64,000 nt of DNA from a virus: positions 1 to 64,000 of the IMG/VR virus record IMGVR_UViG_3300036884_000495; one strand, written 5' to 3'. Positions within the stretch are counted from its first letter, which is position 1. Every line of letters starts with the position of its first letter. Positions 2,677 through 64,000 of this stretch are shown here, piece by piece. Made by a program: the position numbers and the translations under genes. Below the pieces are notes generated by a model, which was given only the letters and a program-made list of their open reading frames with translations, was not told where the DNA came from and ran no database searches.

Positions 2677-3555
2677 CTACTCCGCGAGGATGTACGCGTA
2701 GTAGTTGTAGCAACCCAAGAGGGTAACTTGCAGTTTGACTGCAGTCCTCCAGTCGTCGTCTTCTGTGGGCCATTGAATGCGCACGAAGGACGCCGTGAAT
2801 TCTGCCTCGAGGTCGTGCACGCCTTCGAAGATACGCAGTGCCGTCGCCCGCACTTCGTATGCGGTATTTGACGGAACCGCCTGCTCTTGTTCGTCGGACT
2901 GTTGCTTCTGGCAGAAGCCAGAGGCACACGTGTCGATCTCGCACTTAGAAGCGAGCAGGATGCTCAGACGATTCGCCATTCCTTGAAGCGCCCGGTGGGT
3001 CACGTCGCAACCTTCCTCGGCCGCTTTCGTGTACTCAGGGATGTTCTCCAGCACGTACTTGCGAGTGATCTCAGACAGGTACTCCGTGCGCACCTGGGAT
3101 GCCTTTAGGACCATTGCTTGCTCTGTGTCCCAAGCAGTTTGCGCTTCTTGTAGCTGCGCGAGGAGCTCGTTGTGTTTCGATTGAACGCGAGGGTCGGCGC
3201 TGGGAATAGGGTTCATACGATAACCCCAGTCTTGTGTGGGGCGCGTGTACCCCGGAGGCGCGTACGTGTATGAGAGGAACTTTTGGATGTCCTCCTCCAG
3301 ACGCTCGACTCTCTTACGCTCTTCTTCTGCATGTTTCTCTGCGATCGCCTCAAGGGCAACGCACGTACTTTGGGACGTAGCATCCTCGACGTACAGGCTG
3401 GCGTAGCCGCAGGTGAGGAGTTCCTTCTTGGCGGGCTCTGAGAGGCCCGCCAGGTCGTTGTCAGTGAGCTCGACTTCCGTACCCCCGTAGTTGACACAGT
3501 TGCGGGCAACTGCAGATGCCTTCGTGATGCACACTTTGACTTTGATAGTTTCCAC
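2677..3555 (-). CDS. Hypothetical protein, 292 aa
   Basis: Long ORF; GTG start with an upstream AGGA; ends at the terminator. Confidence 0.7.
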   Translation of the reverse strand: METIKVKVCITKASAVARNCVNYGGTEVELTDNDLAGLSEPAKKELLTCGYASLYVEDATSQSTCVALEAIAEKHAEEERKRVERLEEDIQKFLSYTYAPPGYTRPTQDWGYRMNPIPSADPRVQSKHNELLAQLQEAQTAWDTEQAMVLKASQVRTEYLSEITRKYVLENIPEYTKAAEEGCDVTHRALQGMANRLSILLASKCEIDTCASGFCQKQQSDEQEQAVPSNTAYEVRATALRIFEGVHDLEAEFTASFVRIQWPTEDDDWRTAVKLQVTLLGCYNYYAYILAE

Positions 3556-3607
3556 TACGTACTTCTTTCCTCGCTCTCCGGCGAGATTGTTCGCGCTCCA
3601 TGCGCGG

Positions 3608-3747
3608 TGCCCTCGGGTGGACTCAAACCACCGGAGCGACCCTAATGAGACATGACTCTAACGACGTCATCACTCGCCGCTGGATACATCAGGATCGCCC
3701 GTCACCCGTTCGCGCCTCCACCCAGTAAAGGCGCGCGCTTCGGGGGC
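3608..3747 (-). ncRNA. tRNA-like structured RNA (acceptor stem plus T-arm, no anticodon arm)
   Basis: Intergenic. 5' GCCCCCG pairs with 3' CGAGGGC-A. T-arm GGTGG-TTTGAGT-CCACC directly abuts the acceptor 3' strand. Internal 11-bp and 14-bp stems. Confidence 0.6.
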
Positions 3748-3756
3748 AAGTTTGTT

Positions 3757-4131
3757 CTACGCTTCTTTCTTTGGCGGCGTAGCGAGTTTTACGGCAGGAC
3801 CGAGATGCAATAGGCACGCTTTGCACTCTAGGGGTTTCTCAGTAGGGTCGAAGTCCACAAGCGGATTTACGGCTTGGGCCTTTTTGCTAGCCGCGAACTG
3901 AGCGAGGGTACTGGAGAGGGCCGTAGTCCACGTGGAACCACAGCCTTCAGCGCTGCACGGTGTGCCCATGCAGCCATCCCAAACCCACGTACGCTTCGGG
4001 GTCGGTTCTGGAAATCCATAGCCAGTAACAATCTGCAAGCCTGGGTGTGCGTTTTCCCAGGCGGCTATTCTATTGCGTACTAGCGGCCCAGGCCAGGGTC
4101 CGCGCTTCTTTGTCTTCGGTTTGGTCGTCAT
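3757..4131 (-). CDS. Hypothetical protein, 124 aa
   Basis: AAGGA RBS; ORF in the - strand operon. Confidence 0.6.
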   Translation of the reverse strand: MTTKPKTKKRGPWPGPLVRNRIAAWENAHPGLQIVTGYGFPEPTPKRTWVWDGCMGTPCSAEGCGSTWTTALSSTLAQFAASKKAQAVNPLVDFDPTEKPLECKACLLHLGPAVKLATPPKKEA

Positions 4132-4247
4132 AGAACGTTCCTTTTCGATGTGTGAGTAGCCTGCTTTGGGCGCAGGGAAACCAAGGGCCTGTGCCCTTCA
4201 ATGTTGTTGTACCCGAAGGCGCCGCATAATTTATGTGTTACTTTGCG

Positions 4248-4283
4248 GGGCTAAAGTAAAACAAGGCGAACCTTGTTTTACTC
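4248..4283 (-). terminator. Intrinsic terminator
   Basis: 12-bp perfect stem AGTAAAACAAGG/CCTTGTTTTACT with a TTCG loop on the - strand, directly after the stop at 4289. Confidence 0.7.
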
Positions 4284-4288
4284 AGTGA

Positions 4289-4936
4289 CTACTTCGCGAC
4301 CAGGAATCTATCCTCGGGATAGCCGGCGTCGTCGACAACGGTGTCGAGCGTACCTGGTGCCCCGCACGCGGTGCCCGCAGGCATAGAGGAGATGACGTCA
4401 CACTCACCCCATGCTATGCCCCCGGGGGAGCCCTTGTTTGCGTAGCGAACAACCACACGTGTGCAGTACACGGTGCGCCTGCCAACGTCAGCGTACACAG
4501 ATGTGTAGACATCGCAGTATAGCGGCTGGCCGTCGCATACTTGCGGTATGGGGATAGCGCACCCTGCGGGGTATCCGGTAAGTGGATCACCCTCTATACC
4601 AGTGGAGCACACCATGGGCACGCTTACCGTGCACGGCGGGTCGACACCCGCTTCTGCAGCAGTAGCAGCGTCGGGCGCCAACGAGCCGCTGTCGGGTATC
4701 TGGGTGTCTGGCATTGCAGCATCCGCGGTCATGGTTGCAGACGCCGACGATGTCGACGACGAAGCCTGTGCGTCTGTTGAAACGCCTCCATCGGTAGAGG
4801 GAATGGGAGCTTCTGTTTCGAGTGCAGTACTGTCCCCACCTGTTTCGGCGGTGACGTAGATGTATTCGATGTTAGCGCCGCCACAGGCGGACACCATGAG
4901 CAATCCAAGAGTCAAAGCGATGTTTGAGTAGAACAT
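4289..4936 (-). CDS. Putative lipoprotein with a Cys-rich C-terminal domain
   Basis: AAGGAG RBS; lipobox-like signal MFYSNIALTLGLLMVSA-C; low-complexity D/A/S linker followed by several Cys. Confidence 0.65.
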   Translation of the reverse strand: MFYSNIALTLGLLMVSACGGANIEYIYVTAETGGDSTALETEAPIPSTDGGVSTDAQASSSTSSASATMTADAAMPDTQIPDSGSLAPDAATAAEAGVDPPCTVSVPMVCSTGIEGDPLTGYPAGCAIPIPQVCDGQPLYCDVYTSVYADVGRRTVYCTRVVVRYANKGSPGGIAWGECDVISSMPAGTACGAPGTLDTVVDDAGYPEDRFLVAK

Positions 4937-11528: not shown

Positions 11529-11711
11529 TGCCGGTGGCCTTCGGCCTCAAACGAGCAGTTTGCTCAGACCGGCAATTACTTGATGTTCTCAATGAGGTGT
11601 TGGATATGCCGAACTTATGCACTTGTGCATCTCGGCGAGCATCCCCTAGTACAGAAGGAACGACGTCCAACGACCTCTGTACGCGCGCCCTGAGTAGGGG
11701 GAGAACGTCGG
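11529..11711 (+). ncRNA. Candidate structured (pseudoknotted) ncRNA; strand inferred from the terminator
   Basis: Several nested stems plus two crossing stems, many with G-U pairs; directly followed by an intrinsic terminator. Confidence 0.45.
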
Positions 11712-11715
11712 GGAG

Positions 11716-11749
11716 AAGGCAGGGTTACACCTGCCTTTTCTTTTAGCCC
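11716..11749 (+). terminator. Intrinsic terminator
   Basis: AAGGCAGG/CCTGCCTT stem followed by TTCTTTTAGCCC. Confidence 0.7.
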
Positions 11750-19464: not shown

Positions 19465-20163
19465 TCATGACGCCTCCAGCGCGGCCATGACGGACGCAAA
19501 CTCGAAGTGTTTTCGCAGAAGGTCGCAATTTACGACGTTCTGCGTTCTGCGGGCGGCGTCGTTGGCGGCGGCGTTGGCGGCGTAAGCGTGGGCGGCGGCG
19601 GCGCCGGCGTAGGCGGCGTAAGCGGCGTTGGCGGCGGCGTTGGCGGCGGCGTAGGCGGCGTCGGCGGCGGCGTTGGCGTTGGCGGCGTCGGCGGCGGCGT
19701 TGGCGGCGGCGTAGGCGGCGTAAGCGGCGTAAGCGGCGGCGTAAGCGGCGGCGTAGGCGGCGTCGGCGTGGGCGTAGGCGTAGGCGGCGTTGGCGGCGGC
19801 GTAGGCGGCGTCGGCGTGGGCGTAGGCGTAGGCGGCGTTGGCGGCGGCGGCGTCGGCGGCGGATCGCGCCGCACGCAGCTCCGCGGTTGTCGCGTCCCCC
19901 GCAAGATGCCGTCGCGCGGTTTCGATCGCGACCCGTGGGCGGTCCTCGCCCGCCGGCACAAATCGCAGCACAGACTCCGCTATGTCGCACACGGCTAGCC
20001 GAAACCGCACGTCGTCGTGCGATATAATCCGTCCGAGCAGCCAGAGCATCCAGTCGGATCGCACACACGTTTCCCACGCGGTGCGTGGGTCGGGTTGCGC
20101 CGCTAGCCATACGGCTCCATTGGCACATGGCTCAAGTTTCTTGAGTTTCGATATGTCAATCAT
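19465..20163 (-). CDS. Ala-rich repeat protein with an Imm5-like N-terminal domain
   Basis: AGGAG RBS; DWMLWL...DRPRVAIETARR...TAEL followed by about 100 aa of A/Y/N/D/H repeats. Confidence 0.7.
   Translation of the reverse strand: MIDISKLKKLEPCANGAVWLAAQPDPRTAWETCVRSDWMLWLLGRIISHDDVRFRLAVCDIAESVLRFVPAGEDRPRVAIETARRHLAGDATTAELRAARSAADAAAANAAYAYAHADAAYAAANAAYAYAHADAAYAAAYAAAYAAYAAYAAANAAADAANANAAADAAYAAANAAANAAYAAYAGAAAAHAYAANAAANDAARRTQNVVNCDLLRKHFEFASVMAALEAS
19551..19860 (-). repeat. Low-complexity (GCC)n/NAC codon repeat with an internal tandem duplication
   Basis: AANAAYAYAHADAAYA is encoded twice; the region is almost entirely GCC/GCT and NAC codons. Confidence 0.9.
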
Positions 20164-42866: not shown

Positions 42867-43290
42867 TCTCAAACTCCCCCCACGCCCATACTTCAACGTA
42901 CGGGTCTTGGCCAGGCATTACTTCTCCTTTGGTGACACTGATTGATATGTGCTGGGCGTCGTCGTAGCCAGCGGCCTCCACGATCGTATCCTCCAATAAC
43001 TTGACTCGGTTACTGGCGTCTGTTTTCTTATGCCGCCGAACCTTGGGGTCTTTCCCCCAGGTTTTGCAGTACACGTCGCCGATGGCGAAGAGCGCGATGA
43101 TAACCACCTCGAACTCCTCGTCCTTCCGTGAGAAGAAGGAGAGGAACTCGGGGTGGTTTCGTCCAAGGAAGTTCTGGACCTCACGCTTGTATGCTTTGCC
43201 TTCCTTCTTTAGAACGCGCATGTTCCTGCCCACGGTGGCATACGCATTGTTAGCGGATGGTGGGAAGAAAGGGACAGTGATGTGGATCAT
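42817..43290 (-). CDS. rusA: RusA-like Holliday junction resolvase
   Basis: PPSANNAY, DASNRVKLLEDTI, DDAQ. Confidence 0.8.
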   Translation of the reverse strand: MIHITVPFFPPSANNAYATVGRNMRVLKKEGKAYKREVQNFLGRNHPEFLSFFSRKDEEFEVVIIALFAIGDVYCKTWGKDPKVRRHKKTDASNRVKLLEDTIVEAAGYDDAQHISISVTKGEVMPGQDPYVEVWAWGEFENGPIAQFVATRSTSAL

Positions 43291-46975: not shown

Positions 46976-48985
46976 TTACTTCGCTTCGGCCCAGCTCTTA
47001 CCGCGCCCGCCATCGGCAGGAAGCGGGCAAAGCAGGTCGATACTGAATGGGTGCGCCATCGCGTCTTCAATCTCCCGCAGGCATTCGTCCGCGTGTTCAT
47101 CCGGCACCTCGTACACCAATTCGTCGTGGACTTGGAGCACGCAGTGACAGTCGAAGAAACGATCTAGGCCGATGCAGTCGATGTTGGTCTGCGCTGCGCG
47201 CGTGACGTCTGCCGCACTTCCTTGGATCTGTGTATTTACCGCGAGACGTTCTCCGAGAGCTTGTTCCGCCTTACTCGATGAACCGATCATCGGGATGTTG
47301 CGGCGACGGCCCATCACGGTGAACGCGAACCCGTACTTCTTGCCCTCCTCGATAGCTTCTTTCATGAAGTGCTCGACGGCTGGATATGTGCCCTTGTACT
47401 GTGCGATCTTGTCCTTGGCTTCGCTGACGGTGCAGCCGATGTCCCCCGCGAGCTTGTTTGGACCCATTCCGTAATTTAAGCCGAAGCCGACCGCCTTCGC
47501 GGCAGTTCGCCAGAAGGCGCACTGACGAAGGTAGCCATCGAGGGTCATCTGCCTGTCGGAGGCGCGGGCAAGAACACCAGGGAGTTTGGACTCCGCAGCG
47601 TCGATGGTCTCCCCCGGCGTGCTGCACTTCTTCAACTTCTTGAGGAGATCTTTCGCCTCGTTGATGTCCTCGTAGTCCTTGCTGTTATTGAACATCAGAG
47701 CGGCGTTGCCCGCGTGGATGTCCCACCCCCGCAAGAAGACATCGACCATCGACTGCTCTTGTGCGGCACATGCTAGAAGACGCATTTCCAGCTGTTGATA
47801 ATCGGCGCAAAGTAGGGACCAACCGGGCTCCGTGATGAAGGCGCCGCGAAGGTTCCACTCGTCGTTCTCCGCACGAGGTAAATTTTGCAAGTTCGGATCA
47901 CTGCAGCTAAGACGACCAGTCCTGGCTCCCGCCTGGTTATAGTTCGCGTGGATACGGTCGTTCGGGTCCACAATCTCATTGAGGCCGATGATGTACGTAC
48001 CCAGCAACTTCGAGTACTCGCGTTCTTCGAGCATTAGTTTGAAGAGCGGCACTTCGTGCTCGTAGTGCTCTAGGACCGTGGAGTCCCATGAGGGTTTTCG
48101 CTCGCCTGTCTTGCCGCCTTTGGTCCACTTGATGGGCGGTATCTTTTGCTTCTCGGCGTAGGCAGCGAGTTGCTTCGTAGAGTTCGGGTTGATTGGCTCC
48201 CCTGCGAGGTGCACAATCTCTCGACGTATCTCTTTGATCTTCTCTTCCGCCTCGGGGCGCGCGGCGAGAAAGCGTTGCCGGTCGATCTTCACACCCCGGC
48301 GCTCCATCTTCCACAGCGCCTTCGTGTAGGGGCTCTCTATCTTGGAGAAGAAGTCCCAGAGCGCCTCGATGTACGGGGGATGACGTTGGAAGAGGGAATA
48401 GGTCTTCTCTCGCTCCAACATCTCTTTGAGGGCGAAGTAGCTGCGTAGCGTGCCCCACGCATCATTCGCGGCATACTCAATGAGCAACGCCATGTTCTCG
48501 CGTTCTGCCTTCTCAATGAGTTGCTTGGGGGATTGTGCGGCGCAGATCTTTCCAAACTGGTCCTGGAAGTCGGCCCACGTCCACCCGAGAATGTGCTGCG
48601 CGATGTACTTTAGCTTGTGCGGTTTGTCGTCGAACATGAGGGCGTGCATGACCTGCACGTCGTGCCACTTGCCGAGAATCGAGTAGCCGTAGTTCGCGAG
48701 GATGTGCATGTCATACTTCGCGTTGGCGAGCGGCCACGTGATGTCCGGGTTACCGAAGCACGGTATGAAGTGTGGCAGCATGTCTGCGTGTAGCGTGGCG
48801 CGCTGATTACCCCAGGCCAGAGAGAAGTAGAGGGGGACATCCCGCCACTTCACAAGCCCGGTGGTCTCAGTATCGATAGCGACGACAGGCGAGTGGTACA
48901 CCTCGGTGACAATGCGTTGTATTTCATGTGCGGGCGTTTGGTGTCCGACGTATTGGGCGGTTGGTGCGTCTATATTCCAGGCCAT
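46976..48985 (-). CDS. polA: Family A DNA polymerase (3'-5' exonuclease plus polymerase; no 5' nuclease)
   Basis: AIDTETTG, NAKYD, TGRLSCSDPNLQN, ADYQQLEMR, KAVGFGLNYG, QVHDELV. Confidence 0.95.
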   Translation of the reverse strand: MAWNIDAPTAQYVGHQTPAHEIQRIVTEVYHSPVVAIDTETTGLVKWRDVPLYFSLAWGNQRATLHADMLPHFIPCFGNPDITWPLANAKYDMHILANYGYSILGKWHDVQVMHALMFDDKPHKLKYIAQHILGWTWADFQDQFGKICAAQSPKQLIEKAERENMALLIEYAANDAWGTLRSYFALKEMLEREKTYSLFQRHPPYIEALWDFFSKIESPYTKALWKMERRGVKIDRQRFLAARPEAEEKIKEIRREIVHLAGEPINPNSTKQLAAYAEKQKIPPIKWTKGGKTGERKPSWDSTVLEHYEHEVPLFKLMLEEREYSKLLGTYIIGLNEIVDPNDRIHANYNQAGARTGRLSCSDPNLQNLPRAENDEWNLRGAFITEPGWSLLCADYQQLEMRLLACAAQEQSMVDVFLRGWDIHAGNAALMFNNSKDYEDINEAKDLLKKLKKCSTPGETIDAAESKLPGVLARASDRQMTLDGYLRQCAFWRTAAKAVGFGLNYGMGPNKLAGDIGCTVSEAKDKIAQYKGTYPAVEHFMKEAIEEGKKYGFAFTVMGRRRNIPMIGSSSKAEQALGERLAVNTQIQGSAADVTRAAQTNIDCIGLDRFFDCHCVLQVHDELVYEVPDEHADECLREIEDAMAHPFSIDLLCPLPADGGRGKSWAEAK

Positions 48986-48996
48986 AAAACTCCATA

Positions 48997-49037
48997 GGCA
49001 AAGAAAACCCCCGCACCGGAAAACCGGCACGGGGGTT
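48997..49037 (-). terminator. Intrinsic terminator after the SSB-like gene
   Basis: AACCCCCGTGCCGG-TTTT-CCGGTGCGGGGGTT followed by TTCTTT. Confidence 0.7.
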
Positions 49038-52979: not shown

Positions 52980-53086
52980 TCACTCTTTCACTAGTAGGCA
53001 CTTCCAGCGCCTGCCGTGTTTTATGTTGTTGATCACGGCGCAAGTTGTAAGGAATATGACATCTACTAACTTCTCCAAGATGGTTA

Positions 53087-53133
53087 TGCCCCACTCACCC
53101 CGGACCTTTTTGCGATCCGAGGTGAGTGGGGCA
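53087..53133. repeat. Long inverted repeat/hairpin upstream of the helicase gene
   Basis: 13-bp perfect stem TGCCCCACTCACC/GGTGAGTGGGGCA plus an inner CGGA/TCCG. Confidence 0.75.
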
Positions 53134-53144
53134 ACGTCGTGTTG

Positions 53145-53483
53145 CTAGAAGCTGGCGACGCCGTCGTCGGAGAGGAACTCCCCTAGACCTGCGGGTGCCT
53201 CTCTTCTCTTTGCCGTCGGTTTGCCAGGGGCGTCAGGGACGTCAGTACCGCCCTCGAATACAACCCGCGCGACATCCTGCTCGAGGCTTTGAATCACCTG
53301 ACGTATGAGCGCCGTGGTTTCCTCGCTCCAGACGTTGCCCCCGAAGGTCAGGCGGGACTTCGTACCCAGTACGGGGTCTGTGAGCGCGATTACAACGTGC
53401 GTCTCCGTCGGGTCCTTTATGAAGTCGAGTTCCAGCTTCACAAGGGATAGGCGCGTGAGCTTGCTGATTCCGTCGATGGACAT
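53145..53483 (-). CDS. Hypothetical protein, 112 aa
   Basis: ORF in the operon. Confidence 0.65.
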   Translation of the reverse strand: MSIDGISKLTRLSLVKLELDFIKDPTETHVVIALTDPVLGTKSRLTFGGNVWSEETTALIRQVIQSLEQDVARVVFEGGTDVPDAPGKPTAKRREAPAGLGEFLSDDGVASF

Positions 53484-60585: not shown

Positions 60586-61753
60586 CCCATTCCTCCTCGA
60601 GTACATGCGTCGTGAGATGTGCAAGGAAGCAATTCCGTTCGCCGTCCCCCCTTCCTTGCGGTCGGCGGCTCAAAACGCCGGCCGATACCTTGCCCCCGCA
60701 GCCCAGAGCGCCGGCAAGTACCTTACGCAATCCGCAGGGAACATCGGCGCGGGTATGGGCGTGGGCGCAGTTGCTGGCGGCCTTGCCGGTGGTATCCACG
60801 GGGCAGTCAAAGGCTATCGAGGCAACCCAGAGGAAGAAGGTAGCGGTGGCGTTATCGGCGCCCTTGGCGGTGGTCTGTCTGGTCTGGGTCGCGGCACCCT
60901 GGCGGGAACAGCCATCGGAGGTGCGGCGGGCTTGGCATCCGGCGGCCGCGGGTCGCAACAGGTGCAGCAGCTTACGAGAGGCGCGTACAACCCCCTTGGC
61001 ATCGCCGCGCGCATGGGACAGCGCCAACTGCACTCCGTGACCGGGCTCGTTCCAGGAGGGGCGCAGCGGGGCTCTCAGGAGTACATCAAGGCGCTCACGC
61101 AGATCAATGCGGGCGGGCTTCAAACAAAAGCGCAGGCGCTTGCCACAGCCTCGAATCCGCAGCGGTCCTTTGTGGGTAAGCTTCTTGGGCGTGCGGCGCC
61201 TGTTGCAGACCCCGCGCACGTCATGCAGGCACACCAAGCATACGATGCCGCTGTACAGGCCGCGCACGCAGGGCAGACAAGCGTCGTGGGCCTGGGACAC
61301 AATCTCGCGGAGAAGGGCCTACGGCGTGGCGGCGCTGACATTCTGCACGCGGCTGGTAGCAACCTAAAGCAGCAGGGTGTCGTCGGCGGGGGCCTTATGC
61401 TCGCGGGCGCCGCCGCTCCTATAGCAATGGCGGCAGCCTCTCAAGATGACCCGAACAACCCCACGAAGGGGAGGAACGTAGGGCAGGCAGCAGGCCAAGG
61501 AATCGCGGGTGCGCTCACGCCCATGATCGGTTCTACGGGCGCACAGCTTATAGGGCGTGGCGGTAGTGCAGTAGGCGGTACAATCGGGTCGGGCATCGAC
61601 AAAATAGTAGGTGCAGTTCGCCGCCCTTCTGGTAGTGGTTTTGGTGCAGGTTCAACCACTCCGGGCGCGCAACCCGACTTGGCCTCGCCGCCCGTACAGC
61701 GTGAGTACACCAACGCCGCTCTCGGCAAACCACCTGAAGGTCTCCAGCTATGA
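60578..61753 (+). CDS. Gly/Ala-rich glycine-zipper protein (putative internal virion/ejection protein)
   Basis: Repeated GxxxG hydrophobic segments; directly upstream of the portal-like gene. Confidence 0.55.
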   Translation: MIDPFLLEYMRREMCKEAIPFAVPPSLRSAAQNAGRYLAPAAQSAGKYLTQSAGNIGAGMGVGAVAGGLAGGIHGAVKGYRGNPEEEGSGGVIGALGGGLSGLGRGTLAGTAIGGAAGLASGGRGSQQVQQLTRGAYNPLGIAARMGQRQLHSVTGLVPGGAQRGSQEYIKALTQINAGGLQTKAQALATASNPQRSFVGKLLGRAAPVADPAHVMQAHQAYDAAVQAAHAGQTSVVGLGHNLAEKGLRRGGADILHAAGSNLKQQGVVGGGLMLAGAAAPIAMAAASQDDPNNPTKGRNVGQAAGQGIAGALTPMIGSTGAQLIGRGGSAVGGTIGSGIDKIVGAVRRPSGSGFGAGSTTPGAQPDLASPPVQREYTNAALGKPPEGLQL

Positions 61754-64000
61754 GTTTTTCCTTTGGCAACTTCTCCCTAGGGTCTGCATCGGGCGCAGGG
61801 CGATTAGCCGGCGGAATGACCCGCGGACGCATGCAGGGTGGCAACACTCAAGGGGTCAACTACCCCTCGCCGTTCTTCGATGTAGCGCACACGTATCTGC
61901 CGACAACCGTCAAGCAGATGTTCAAGTTCTGTCGCTACTACTTCATGACGAACCCGTTGATCAACGCGATCGTCTGCAAGCTCTCAGAGTACCCAGTCAC
62001 GGACATCGTGATCGACCACGAAGACCCCGAGGTTGTTCGCCGGTGGACGGAGTACTTCAACGAAACCATTCGCTTTCGGTCCTTTCAGATTGAGTGCGGG
62101 CTGGACTACCACGCGTACGGAACAAGTGCGGTGAGTCTGAGCTTCCCCTTTCAGAAGTACCTCACATGCACCGCGTGTGGCTTCAGCGAACAAGCGCGCA
62201 AGATTCGTGAAAACTGGATATATTCTAGCCACGAATTTCGTCTGACCTGCCCCAAGTGCGGACAGACGGGCGCGGCCACTCCGAAGGACTGGTACTACCG
62301 CGATGCCAGCGCCATCAAACCCGTACGTTGGAACGCGGAGGATATCGAAGTTAGCTACAACGACATCACGGGTGACTGCACGTACTTCTACACGATGCCG
62401 GCCCCCGTCCGTGCAGACGTCACGCTTGGGAAGAAGGACATCGTAGAAACGATGCCCCAGATCTTCTTGCAGGCCATGCGCCAGGAGAAGGGCGTTGTCT
62501 TCAGCAAGGCGAACCTGTTCACGATGAAGCGCCCTGGACTTGCCACGCAAGACCGCGGGTGGGGCACACCACTGATTCTGCCAGTGCTGAAGGACACCTT
62601 CTATCTGCAGATCATGAAGAAGGCCCAAGAATGCGTGGCGCCAGGGACTTTGCTGGAAACGCCAGCAGGCTTGCAGCCCGCCGGTTCTTTGGGCGTGGGG
62701 GATATTGTCCGTAGCCACACGGGCGCTTGGCGCCATATCACACAGAAGAAGCTGCGACCTATGCTGGCCGAGAACGGGGATTATGCAGTCAAGTTTTCCA
62801 TCAGCGGGTTGCGGCAGCTGCCAAGTACGGTCTCAAATACGCACCCGATATACGTACTGCGCAGGAACCAAAAGAATCGCCGTATAGATACGAAGGAGCA
62901 CCGGCGCTCAAGCTATATGCTGCGAAATCCCAGCCTGTACGACCTGCATTTTGTGGACGCCGGAGAGATAGAAGTAGGGCAATATGTCGGGTACCCGATC
63001 GCGCGCAGCAAGGATTGTACGGAAGTAGATCTGGCTTCGTACGCGGGCGACTTCGCGGTTACGGAGAAGTACGTATACAGCGGTGTTAGTCTGGCTACTG
63101 CTACGGCTTTCGAAAGCCTAGAGGCAGGGGAGCGCGTACTTCACAACAATGCAGGGCGTGTAGCAAAGAGGGCTATTGCGGCGGTAGATGCCCCAAAGCG
63201 CGCAGAGCGGTGGCTGGAGTTGGATGAAGACCTGGCATACATCGCGGGCTGGTACGTGGGTGATGGGAGCATCGGTGCGCGCCGCGTGGACTTCTCTATG
63301 GGCCCTGATGACAACGGCGTCGAACTAGAGCAAGCGATTGATCGCGTGTTTGGTTGTGTGTGCACGCATACTCCGTCTGAAACTTCTCGCGGATGGAACT
63401 TGTGCGCATCCGAAACAATCTTTTCCCAGTTCTTTTCCAACTGGATTCCTGGGGGTTCGCATGAGAAGCGAATACCGAGAGAGGTACTAGAGGCACCGAA
63501 TGCCATCGTCCTTGCTTTTTTCCGTGGGTACCTAGAAGCAGACGGGTGGACGCGCGGTGATGGCAGCCGAATAGCTGCATGCCTTTGTAATGGCGGCCTC
63601 GCATATCAGCTGTGGCAGCTGTCGCTTAGTTTGCGCTGCATAGCCACCGTTTCGGAACGAGAGAGTACGGAGACAACCATCACGAACCGCAAAGGGAAGA
63701 AGATGGTGTTAAGTGCCGGGCGTCCCGTGTTCCAATTCGCGGTGAATACAGCGTCTGCCCGGCGCTTGTGCGGCCTAATGGAGGGGCGTGACGTTGACTC
63801 CATTGAAACAGGCAAGAGTGGCTTCTTTCTGGGGGACTACTTTCTAGGGAGAATCAATAGCGTTGAGTGCGTCCCCTGCTCTGAGGTCATTAGCTTCGAG
63901 GTGGAGGAGGAGCACACATTCTGTCTACCTGGCATGGCCACACACAACAGCATTTTACTCGAGCACATAGTCCCCCTGCGTATCTTGTTCCCACAAGCCG
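61750..64000 (+). CDS. Putative portal protein, intein-containing, truncated by the window end (absent from the ORF track)
   Basis: Open from ATG 61750 to the window end; CRYYFMTNPLINAIVCKLSEYPVTD, GLDYHAYGTS and GWGTPLILPVLK are portal-like motifs. Confidence 0.7.
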   Translation, partial: MSFSFGNFSLGSASGAGRLAGGMTRGRMQGGNTQGVNYPSPFFDVAHTYLPTTVKQMFKFCRYYFMTNPLINAIVCKLSEYPVTDIVIDHEDPEVVRRWTEYFNETIRFRSFQIECGLDYHAYGTSAVSLSFPFQKYLTCTACGFSEQARKIRENWIYSSHEFRLTCPKCGQTGAATPKDWYYRDASAIKPVRWNAEDIEVSYNDITGDCTYFYTMPAPVRADVTLGKKDIVETMPQIFLQAMRQEKGVVFSKANLFTMKRPGLATQDRGWGTPLILPVLKDTFYLQIMKKAQECVAPGTLLETPAGLQPAGSLGVGDIVRSHTGAWRHITQKKLRPMLAENGDYAVKFSISGLRQLPSTVSNTHPIYVLRRNQKNRRIDTKEHRRSSYMLRNPSLYDLHFVDAGEIEVGQYVGYPIARSKDCTEVDLASYAGDFAVTEKYVYSGVSLATATAFESLEAGERVLHNNAGRVAKRAIAAVDAPKRAERWLELDEDLAYIAGWYVGDGSIGARRVDFSMGPDDNGVELEQAIDRVFGCVCTHTPSETSRGWNLCASETIFSQFFSNWIPGGSHEKRIPREVLEAPNAIVLAFFRGYLEADGWTRGDGSRIAACLCNGGLAYQLWQLSLSLRCIATVSERESTETTITNRKGKKMVLSAGRPVFQFAVNTASARRLCGLMEGRDVDSIETGKSGFFLGDYFLGRINSVECVPCSEVISFEVEEEHTFCLPGMATHNSILLEHIVPLRILFPQA
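62632..63948 (+). mobile_element. Intein (439 aa) with a LAGLIDADG homing endonuclease
   Basis: N-terminal C-VAPGTLLET, block B VSNTHPIY, LAYIAGWYVGDGS, FFRGYLEADG, C-terminal SFEVEEEHTF...THN followed by Ser+1. Confidence 0.92.

What the first reader, a model, noticed from the sequence alone, without database searches (positions are those of the whole stretch)
3608..3747. 140-nt tRNA-shaped RNA with acceptor stem and T-arm but no anticodon arm
Seen on the - strand, in the gap between two CDSs: GCCCCCG-aagcg-[CGCGCCTTTAC-tgg-GTGGAGGCGCG]-aacgggtgac-[GGGCGATCCTGATG...(ATGAC/GTCAT)...CATTAGGGTCGCTC]-c-[GGTGG-TTTGAGT-CCACC]-CGAGGGC-A-CC. The 7-bp acceptor (one C.A mismatch), 5-bp/7-nt T-arm and discriminator have exact tRNA geometry. 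The D and anticodon arms are replaced by an 11-bp hairpin and a 14-bp stem with G-U pairs. Known: tmRNA has this tRNA-top-plus-long-stem topology, but this RNA lacks the G3.U70 alanine determinant and is too short for a tag ORF. Inference: a novel phage tRNA-mimic ncRNA, possibly processed by RNase P. It could act as a decoy for anticodon nucleases or tRNA-sensing defences, or as an mRNA-processing signal.
Basis: partly seen in the sequence, partly recalled or inferred. Interest (0 to 1): 0.78.

Follow-up and report, generated by a model that had tools for sequence, protein, structure and literature searches.

The report
Orphan tRNA-shaped RNA in peat phage
A 140-base stretch between two unknown genes of an uncultured peat phage folds strongly, on one strand only, into a shape that copies the top of a tRNA much as phage T4's unexplained RNAC does, but no relative carries it, so its tRNA mimicry remains plausible and unproven.

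Summary
On the minus strand, 3608-3747 reads exactly as described and folds into a four-way junction. It has a 7-bp closing stem (one C.A), an 11-bp hairpin, a 14-bp arm, and a 5-bp/7-nt hairpin abutting the 3' strand, followed by A-CC.

The fold is strong and strand-specific: -66 kcal/mol, z -2.9, rank 10 of 5105 windows. The complement folds about 22 kcal/mol worse.

The tRNA likeness is only suggestive. The canonical T-arm/acceptor/NCC set turns up in 13% of simulated genomes. C56 and a D loop are missing. ARAGORN and the Rfam tRNA and tmRNA models give nothing.

No homologue was found, so covariation could not be tested. The element is single-copy and absent from 16 related phage records, as is its downstream gene. 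The one contig with a diverged neighbour gene could not be fetched.

The closest known architecture is phage T4 RNAC (139 nt; 7-bp mismatched closing stem, two arms, T-arm). Its role is still unknown.

My reading (0.4): the RNA is co-transcribed, cut out by host tRNA-end enzymes, and released as an RNAC-like RNA. The main rival (0.35) is a structured mRNA element with no tRNA mimicry.

The scan has noted tRNA-top-half RNAs on other phage DNA, but never this sequence.

The parts
3741..3747 (-). 5' strand of the acceptor-like closing stem (GCCCCCG); U at -1 (3748), 9 nt after the upstream stop codon
   Evidence: pair probabilities 0.56-1.00 for the element alone, 0.29-0.51 in 245 nt, 0.01-0.02 in 451 nt
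3711..3735 (-). hairpin H1: 11 bp (2 G.U) with a UGG loop, in the place of the D arm
   Evidence: pair probability 0.95-1.00 in all three contexts
3634..3700 (-). long arm H2: 14-bp stem (3 G.U) capped by a 39-nt region with two alternative inner hairpins, in the place of the anticodon arm
   Evidence: pair probability 0.55-1.00 in the 140- and 245-nt contexts, 0.05-0.09 in 451 nt, where a fold only 1.9 kcal/mol better competes
3616..3632 (-). T-arm-like hairpin GGUGG-UUUGAGU-CCACC: 5 bp, 7-nt loop fitting U-U-N-R-A, G-C closing pair, U where tRNA has C56
   Evidence: the same 17-mer is the T-arm of 2 ARAGORN-called phage tRNAs (L015, L022) and of one tRNA-shaped RNA (L011)
3606..3615 (-). 3' strand of the closing stem (CGAGGGC, 3615-3609), unpaired A (3608), CC (3607-3606); the next base is G, so no encoded CCA
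3556..3605 (-). trailer: two small hairpins (3605-3593; 3585-3570), the second overlapping the GAGG ribosome-binding site of the downstream gene (GTG start at 3555)
3757..4131 (-). upstream gene P0001 (124 aa, no family); co-directional and ends 9 nt before the element
2677..3555 (-). downstream gene P0002 (292 aa, no family); followed by a terminator-like hairpin at 2667-2652

Best explanation
The element is a real RNA structure, specific to the minus strand, that sits inside a short accessory transcription unit (P0001 - element - P0002). Its closing stem and 3' hairpin reproduce the 7+5-bp acceptor/T-arm minihelix of tRNA. That minihelix is the part that RNase P and the 3'-end enzymes read (established knowledge, recalled). 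Inferred mechanism: the host's RNase P cuts between U3748 and G3747, and 3' trimming occurs near 3606-3608. This severs the two cistrons and releases a stable RNA of about 140 nt, of the kind exemplified by phage T4 RNAC. Shown: the sequence, the fold, its strand specificity, its position between two co-directional genes with no promoter or terminator match beside it, and the architectural match to T4 RNAC. Inferred: transcription, cleavage, stability and any downstream role.
For: The fold is strong: -66.0 kcal/mol, z -2.92, 0 of 200 shuffles. It ranks 10 of 5105 windows on the minus strand and 3825 of 5105 on the plus strand. It is the 4th most minus-favoured window, at -22.2 kcal/mol. Five G.U pairs in the two long helices would be C.A on the other strand. 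For the tRNA-top features (5-bp stem, 7-nt UUNRA loop, G-C closing pair, 0-nt junction to a 7-bp stem, unpaired A, CC), this is the only site in 117.6 kb, both strands, that meets all of them. With a Watson-Crick acceptor it is the only one of 4 sites outside a long ORF. The identical T-arm 17-mer occurs in 2 ARAGORN-called phage tRNAs, so U56 is tolerated in real tRNAs. No sigma-70 promoter or terminator match flanks the element, while terminator-like hairpins bracket the three-part unit. A discrete RNA would therefore have to be cut out. T4 RNAC folds into the same plan at 139 nt.
Against: There are no homologues, so there is no covariation. The model built from the element hits 0 of 16 related phage records at E<=10, and no second copy exists in the genome. 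The canonical feature set appears by chance in 13% of simulated genomes, mean 0.13. Given such a T-arm, a lenient acceptor is found about two times in three (0.13/0.19). C56, U8 and any D loop are missing, and the junction linkers (5, 10, 1, 0 nt) differ from those of tRNA (2, 1, 4-5, 0). The Rfam tRNA and tmRNA models give nothing at E<=10 per genome, whereas T5 RNA1 scores 24 bits. In a 451-nt context the closing stem and H2 lose out to pairings with the coding flanks (probability 0.01-0.09), although the enforced element is only 1.9 kcal/mol worse. The genome fragment has no tRNA genes, so the element is not part of a tRNA cluster as RNAC is. The strain comparison is uninformative: 0 of 7 differences fall in the gap, with about 1.4 expected.
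Confidence: 0.4

Rival explanations
1. It is a structured cis-acting mRNA element with no tRNA mimicry. The hairpins would act as a stabiliser, an RNase III/E processing site or a translational control for the downstream gene P0002. The acceptor/T-arm look would be coincidental.
For: The two robust features in every context are plain hairpins: H1 at 0.95-1.00 and most of the T hairpin at 0.72-0.97 (its outermost pair drops to 0.48 in 451 nt). The closing stem is the weakest helix and has a C.A mismatch. The feature set is expected by chance in 13% of genomes. A trailer hairpin overlaps the ribosome-binding site of P0002. Other windows in this genome are as structured or more so, for example 53001-53220 and 43021-43200. 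The tRNA and tmRNA models are silent.
Against: It does not explain why the 3' hairpin meets the 5-bp/7-nt/UUNRA/G-C closing rule, abuts a 7-bp stem with no spacer, and is followed by A-CC. This is the only such site in the genome. It also does not explain the match to the plan of T4 RNAC.
Confidence: 0.35
2. It is a fortuitous structure in a fast-evolving accessory region, with no selected function.
For: The whole 1-10 kb region is unconserved. P0002 occurs in 0 of 16 relatives, the 262-aa gene in 0 of 14 and the 446-aa gene in 1 of 14. There is no conservation signal and no expression evidence.
Against: 0 of 200 shuffles fold as well. The fold is in the top 0.2% of windows on its strand and strongly strand-asymmetric. 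The element is identical in a strain that differs at 5 sites in the adjacent 375-nt gene.
Confidence: 0.15
3. It is a decayed tRNA or tmRNA gene, or an attP core that copies the 3' end of a host tRNA.
For: A T-arm, 3' acceptor strand and ACC are what an attP core or a gene remnant would keep. 5 of 17 records of this phage clade carry tRNA genes.
Against: There is no exact match to the 25-nt 3' half, with C or T allowed at position 56, in 185,579 species genomes. No integrase domain was found among the neighbours scanned. The inner arms are near-perfect helices, not decayed D and anticodon arms. Position 3:70 is C-G, not G.U. ARAGORN finds no tmRNA and RF00023 gives nothing.
Confidence: 0.05

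Closest known systems
Phage T4 RNAC (species 1 RNA; AF158101 70908-71046)
   Same: Length of 139 against 140 nt. A 7-bp closing stem with internal mismatches (two U.U in T4, one C.A here). Two long hairpin arms in place of the D and anticodon arms. A 5-bp/7-nt T-arm joined to the 3' strand with no spacer. Function unknown (PMC3014915 and PMC9697503, passages).
   Different: No sequence or model similarity. RNAC has the canonical UUCGAAU T loop, where this element has UUUGAGU. RNAC lies in the T4 tRNA gene cluster, whereas this element lies between two protein genes in a genome fragment with no tRNA. RNAC is a shown stable RNA; this element is not.
Phage T5 RNA1 and RNA2 (AY543070, annotated 'tRNA-like stable RNA with unknown functions')
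   Same: Phage RNAs of 125-144 nt with an acceptor stem, a T-arm and extra folded sequence in the anticodon region.
   Different: Both T5 RNAs fold with a D-arm-like first hairpin and have UUCAACU / UUCGAAU T loops; only RNA1 folds with a long extra arm before the T-arm. RNA1 scores 24 bits on the Rfam tRNA model and RNA2 gives no hit. This element has none of these features and scores nothing. They lie in a tRNA cluster.
tmRNA tRNA-like domain (Rfam RF00023)
   Same: An acceptor stem and T-arm mounted on a long helix, with an A discriminator.
   Different: C3-G70 instead of G3.U70. No pseudoknots or tag frame were called (ARAGORN). No RF00023 match. An extra 11-bp hairpin sits where tmRNA has its D-loop analogue.
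YrlA-type bacterial and phage Y RNAs (Chen et al. 2014, PMC4201824, passages read)
   Same: tRNA-like non-coding RNAs, some encoded by phages. The M. smegmatis YrlA, with a 7-bp acceptor stem, is cut by RNase P and receives CCA.
   Different: YrlA keeps conserved D and T arms and lies within 4 kb of a Ro60 (TROVE) gene. There is no TROVE match in the 117.6-kb fragment and no Rfam match. The GNCGAAN0-1G motif is not present; the sequence reads CCCGAAG.

Membership tests
tRNA (Rfam RF00005 / ARAGORN) | Cloverleaf with D arm, anticodon arm and anticodon; model score at or above 29 bits | tested here: not met
   ARAGORN finds 0 genes in the window and in the genome. Rfam gives 0 matches at gathering and at E<=10. 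RF00005 alone gives 0 matches at E<=10 per genome, with the control positive in 14 of 14 genomes.
tRNA (Rfam RF00005 / ARAGORN) | 7-bp acceptor stacked on a 5-bp T stem with a 7-nt T loop, then discriminator and CCA | tested here: inconclusive
   The geometry is met. However, there is one C.A mismatch, U56 in place of C56, and ACCG in place of NCCA. The chance expectation is 0.13 per genome.
tmRNA (RF00023) | G3.U70 alanine identity pair | tested here: not met
   Position 3:70 is C-G.
tmRNA (RF00023) | Tag reading frame with pseudoknots; model match | tested here: not met
   ARAGORN finds no tmRNA, standard or permuted. RF00023 gives no match at E<=10. A 15-codon AUG frame inside H2 has no ribosome-binding site and no alanine-rich end (read by eye).
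YrlA / Y RNA | Ro60 (TROVE) gene nearby; conserved D and T arms; GNCGAAN0-1G motif | tested here: not met
   No PF05731 match in the fragment, which is estimated 63% complete. No Rfam match. The motif is absent.
Phage tRNA-like stable RNAs (T4 RNAC, T5 RNA1/RNA2 kind) | Closing acceptor-like stem plus abutting T-arm, with non-decoding arms between | tested here: met
   T4 RNAC fold; T5 RNA1/RNA2 folds.
Phage tRNA-like stable RNAs (T4 RNAC, T5 RNA1/RNA2 kind) | Homology in sequence or model to a known member | tested here: not met
   Model R1 finds only the element itself (176.6 bits) among the T4 and T5 loci. blastn against 50,697 phage records gives no match.
Phage tRNA-like stable RNAs (T4 RNAC, T5 RNA1/RNA2 kind) | Located in, and co-processed with, a tRNA gene cluster | tested here: not met
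   No tRNA in 117.6 kb. The element lies between two CDSs.
Phage tRNA-like stable RNAs (T4 RNAC, T5 RNA1/RNA2 kind) | Accumulates as a discrete stable RNA | not testable with these tools
   Only assembled contigs of RNA runs were available, and these cannot show ends or levels.

The most novel reading that the evidence does not exclude
The three-part unit (P0001 with a hypervariable middle, the tRNA-top mimic, and P0002) is a phage counter-defence module. The RNA would be cut out of the mRNA by RNase P. Lacking an anticodon arm, it would act as a non-decoding tRNA look-alike that occupies or misleads a host tRNA-directed enzyme, possibly together with its two flanking proteins. This would be an mRNA-embedded, tRNA-cluster-independent relative in kind of T4 RNAC, and it would give that 50-year-old orphan class a testable function.
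Probability: 0.08. Interest if true: 0.75.

Novelty: new variant of a known kind. Interest (0 to 1): 0.33.

Why it matters
Small phage RNAs that keep only the top of a tRNA have been known since T4 RNAC and the T5 stable RNAs, and they still have no assigned role. If this element is confirmed, it would show that the design also occurs outside tRNA clusters. It would then be embedded in a protein-coding accessory operon of a phage lineage far from any cultured phage (DNA polymerase at most 31.5% identical to GenBank phage records). That placement points to a role in transcript cutting or in phage-host conflict. As it stands, this is a single unreplicated sequence. Its value is as one more candidate for a class that needs an experiment, not as evidence about that class.

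Tried and rejected
Homologue hunting gave nothing usable.
- blastn of 3300-4200 against phage records: no match.
- The search for related loci with P0002, P0001, the P0002/P0003 alignment and PolA in viral contigs: none. The alignment in JGI metagenomes and in species genomes: none.
- The exact 25-mer of the 3' half in viral contigs: 0 hits.
- The 17-mer T-arm in viral contigs: 25 hits, none homologous. Two are true tRNAs. L011 is a tRNA-shaped RNA with a canonical D arm. Seven are one hairpin family preceded by an A-run, which I read as a terminator on the other strand. Eight share one other context that I did not characterise. The rest are singletons.
- The anchor pattern in metagenomes: 9 hits, none with a T stem by eye, about the number I estimated for chance.
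- P0002 has 1 homologue in 5.8 billion proteins (P0003, 45% identity, on a 75-kb contig). Its DNA could not be fetched.
- P0001 has 2 near-identical homologues.

Relatives found through a PolA alignment lack the element, P0002 and the flanking genes. A motif scan of 335,336 bases from three of them gave 7 hits, all overlapping ORFs of 90 aa or more. One of these is a true tRNA, so that ORF flag is crude.

Expression: two RNA-library runs (X16, X17) hold contigs only over 4431-4818 and 2892-3179, and none over the element. Contigs cannot show absence, and DNA carry-over is possible, so I draw nothing from this.

Strain variation: the X4 contig covers 3271-4291 with 7 differences, 6 of them listed, none in 3556-3756. 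This is not significant.

Neighbour function: Pfam, PHROGs, PADLOC and NCBIfam found no family for P0001, P0002, P0003 or the 262-aa protein, nor for small ORFs on the opposite strand. Of the ten other neighbours scanned against Pfam, two had only weak matches below the curated cut-off. The Atlas gave no usable hit. The AlphaFold2 model of P0002 has pLDDT 52.9, so no fold search was run.

No SmpB or CCA-adding enzyme was found in the fragment. The host would supply these, so this is not informative.

ARAGORN at a relaxed threshold returned 333 calls, which is noise. tRNAscan-SE and R-scape were not available. Supplementary files of papers were not consulted.

Full report
WHAT IS THERE

The window is the first 64 kb of a 117,624-base IMG/VR virus record, estimated 63% complete. 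Contigs at least 99% identical were laid from two further peat metagenome runs of different studies.

On the minus strand, a 124-aa gene (P0001, 4131-3757) stops 9 nt before the element. A 292-aa gene (P0002, 3555-2677) starts 52 nt after it. Both boundaries are backed by homologues. P0004 and P0005 have the same length as P0001, and P0003 shares the METIKV start of P0002.

RNAfold returns, as both MFE and centroid, a four-way junction:
- a closing stem of 7 positions with one C.A;
- an 11-bp hairpin (H1);
- a 14-bp arm capped by a 39-nt region (H2);
- a 5-bp/7-nt hairpin joined to the 3' strand with no spacer.
An unpaired A and CC follow.

IS THE FOLD MORE THAN CHANCE? YES.

- The MFE is -66.0 kcal/mol, z -2.92, and 0 of 200 dinucleotide shuffles fold as well.
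- I scanned 5105 overlapping 140-nt windows. This covered the first 102 kb only, because the script hit its time limit.
- After GC correction the element's window ranks 10th on the minus strand (z -3.13). Its complement ranks 3825th.
- The strand difference of -22.2 kcal/mol is the 4th most minus-favoured. Folded alone, the plus strand gives -51.5.
- The asymmetry comes from five G.U pairs in H1 and H2. This is what a structure selected at the RNA level on the coding-sense strand would show.
- Caveats: several other loci in this genome are as structured. In a 451-nt context the ensemble prefers pairings between H2 and the coding flanks (probability of H2 and the closing stem 0.01-0.09). The fold with the element enforced is only 1.9 kcal/mol worse, and such long-range pairs with translated sequence are doubtful.

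IS THE tRNA LIKENESS MORE THAN CHANCE? ONLY SUGGESTIVELY.

- Acceptor plus T-arm geometry alone (G.U allowed, one mismatch, insert 40-160 nt) occurs 4080 times in the genome.
- Adding a UUNRA loop leaves 20 hits. Adding a G-C closing pair leaves 3, two of which are alternative registers of this same hairpin. Adding N-CC leaves only this site.
- In 200 first-order Markov genomes the full set occurred 0.13 times on average, and 13% had at least one.
- Given such a T-arm, a lenient acceptor is found about two times in three, so the closing stem adds little.
- With a Watson-Crick acceptor, 4 sites remain, and only this one lies outside an ORF of 90 aa or more.
- Missing features: C56 (U here), U8, any D loop, and tRNA-like junction linkers.
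- In its favour, the identical 17-nt T-arm is used by two ARAGORN-called phage tRNAs and by one tRNA-shaped RNA in IMG/VR. U56 is therefore not disqualifying.

KNOWN FAMILIES

- ARAGORN finds no tRNA or tmRNA in the window or the genome.
- Rfam 15 gives nothing at gathering, or at E<=10 on 451 nt.
- RF00005 and RF00023 searched alone give nothing at E<=10 per genome, with positive controls.
- As a sensitivity control, T5 RNA1 scores 24 bits on the tRNA model and T5 RNA2 scores nothing.
- Position 3:70 is C-G, so the alanine identity pair of tmRNA is absent.
- No TROVE/Ro60 gene is present, which argues against a YrlA-type RNA (features taken from passages of PMC4201824).
- No bacterial species genome holds the 25-nt 3' half, with C or T allowed at position 56. 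This argues against an attP core copied from a host tRNA.

COMPARATIVE EVIDENCE: NONE OBTAINABLE

- The element has no second copy in the genome.
- P0002 has one homologue in 5.8 billion proteins (45% identity, on a 75-kb contig).
- P0001 has two near-identical homologues.
- Scans of viral, metagenome and genome collections with the neighbour proteins and with DNA patterns from the element found no homologous locus.
- A PolA alignment did reveal a clade of phages of about 160-200 kb.
- In the 16 closest IMG/VR records (PolA 44-65% identical, three complete), a covariance model of the element finds nothing at E<=10.
- P0002 is absent from 16 of 16 of these records. The flanking 262-aa gene is absent from 14 of 14, and the 446-aa gene from 13 of 14.
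- The element therefore sits in a fast-turning accessory region.
- Five of the 17 records carry 1-4 tRNA genes. The own fragment and the four closest relatives carry none.
- A strain contig (run X4) differs at 7 positions in 3271-4291, none of them in the 201-nt gap. About 1.4 would be expected, so this is not significant.

CLOSEST KNOWN THING

Earlier notes of this scan pointed me to the T4 and T5 stable RNAs. I fetched and folded them.

T4 RNAC (139 nt) has a 7-position closing stem with two U.U, two long hairpin arms, and a T-arm that abuts the 3' strand. This is the same plan as here, at nearly the same length.

There is no sequence or model similarity between them. RNAC has a canonical UUCGAAU loop and lies in the tRNA cluster. 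Its role is stated to be unknown in PMC3014915 and PMC9697503 (passages read).

The T5 RNA1 and RNA2 folds show a D-arm-like first hairpin, and RNA1 a long extra arm, so they are further from this element.

That RNase P needs mainly the acceptor/T-arm stack, prefers U at -1, and pairs with the 3' CC is recalled textbook knowledge, not tested here. The element offers U-1, G+1, the 12-bp stack and A-CC.

HOW IT MOST LIKELY WORKS

No promoter or terminator match lies beside the element, while terminator-like hairpins bracket the unit P0001-element-P0002. Any discrete RNA must therefore be cut from the mRNA.

My best reading (0.4) is that host tRNA-end enzymes do this, severing the two cistrons and releasing an RNAC-like RNA.

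The main rival (0.35) is a structured mRNA element (stabiliser, nuclease site or translational control) whose tRNA look is coincidental. An accident (0.15) and a decayed tRNA/tmRNA gene or attP core (0.05) follow.

Neighbour proteins match no family in Pfam, PHROGs, PADLOC or NCBIfam, and the P0002 model is too poor to search with.

VERDICT

The element is not a member of the tRNA, tmRNA or YrlA families. In architecture it is a variant of the T4 RNAC kind.

It is a single orphan sequence with no covariation and no expression data, so interest is modest. The scan has reported tRNA-top-half RNAs on other phage DNA, but no look-alike of this sequence or its neighbours.

Noticed in passing
window 3892-3978 (-), inside P0001: P0001's homologue P0005 is identical over residues 1-39 and 90-124 but differs at 13 of 29 residues in positions 52-80, including three cysteines. 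A second strain (P0004, matching run X4) has three further substitutions. This is a localised hypervariable patch in an otherwise fixed small protein.
   Followed up: partly
window 19552-19862: A GGC-rich tandem repeat (period 12 or 21, about 15-25 copies) lies inside overlapping minus-strand ORFs. It makes the plus strand fold about 54 kcal/mol better than the minus strand, the most extreme asymmetry in the genome. The true reading frame was not settled.
   Followed up: partly
window 53001-53220 and 43021-43200: These are the most structured 140-nt windows of the genome on both strands (GC-corrected z -3.0 to -4.0). They lie inside or beside the replication gene block, and being strong on both strands suggests DNA-level palindromes.
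   Followed up: no
window 4245-4275 (-): An AAAACAAGG-UUCG-CCUUGUUUU hairpin followed by a short T-containing tail (ACTTT) lies right after the 262-aa gene. It is a likely terminator that separates that gene from the P0001-element-P0002 unit. The consensus scan did not list it.
   Followed up: partly
L011 157-310 (-), IMG/VR contig of 94 kb: A tRNA-shaped gene with a canonical D arm (UAGUUCAGUUGAUAGAACA), an insert of about 100 nt, the same 17-nt T-arm as the element, and an encoded CCA. ARAGORN does not call it. It looks like the tRNA-with-insert class that earlier notes of the scan describe.
   Followed up: partly
G005:C1:20036-20107 and G009:C1:142678-143426: In two relatives the tRNA genes lie about 36 kb downstream of PolA on the opposite strand. 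The matching place in this window would be near 11 kb on the plus strand, close to the structured locus at 11529-11749 that another first-reader note flags.
   Followed up: no
window 46976-49030 (-) and relatives: Several PolA homologues of this clade are 800-1050 aa long and carry intein or homing-endonuclease domains (PF14890, PF13392, PF07463). The window's own PolA is uninterrupted. The open ORF at 61750-63999 has a LAGLIDADG match.
   Followed up: no
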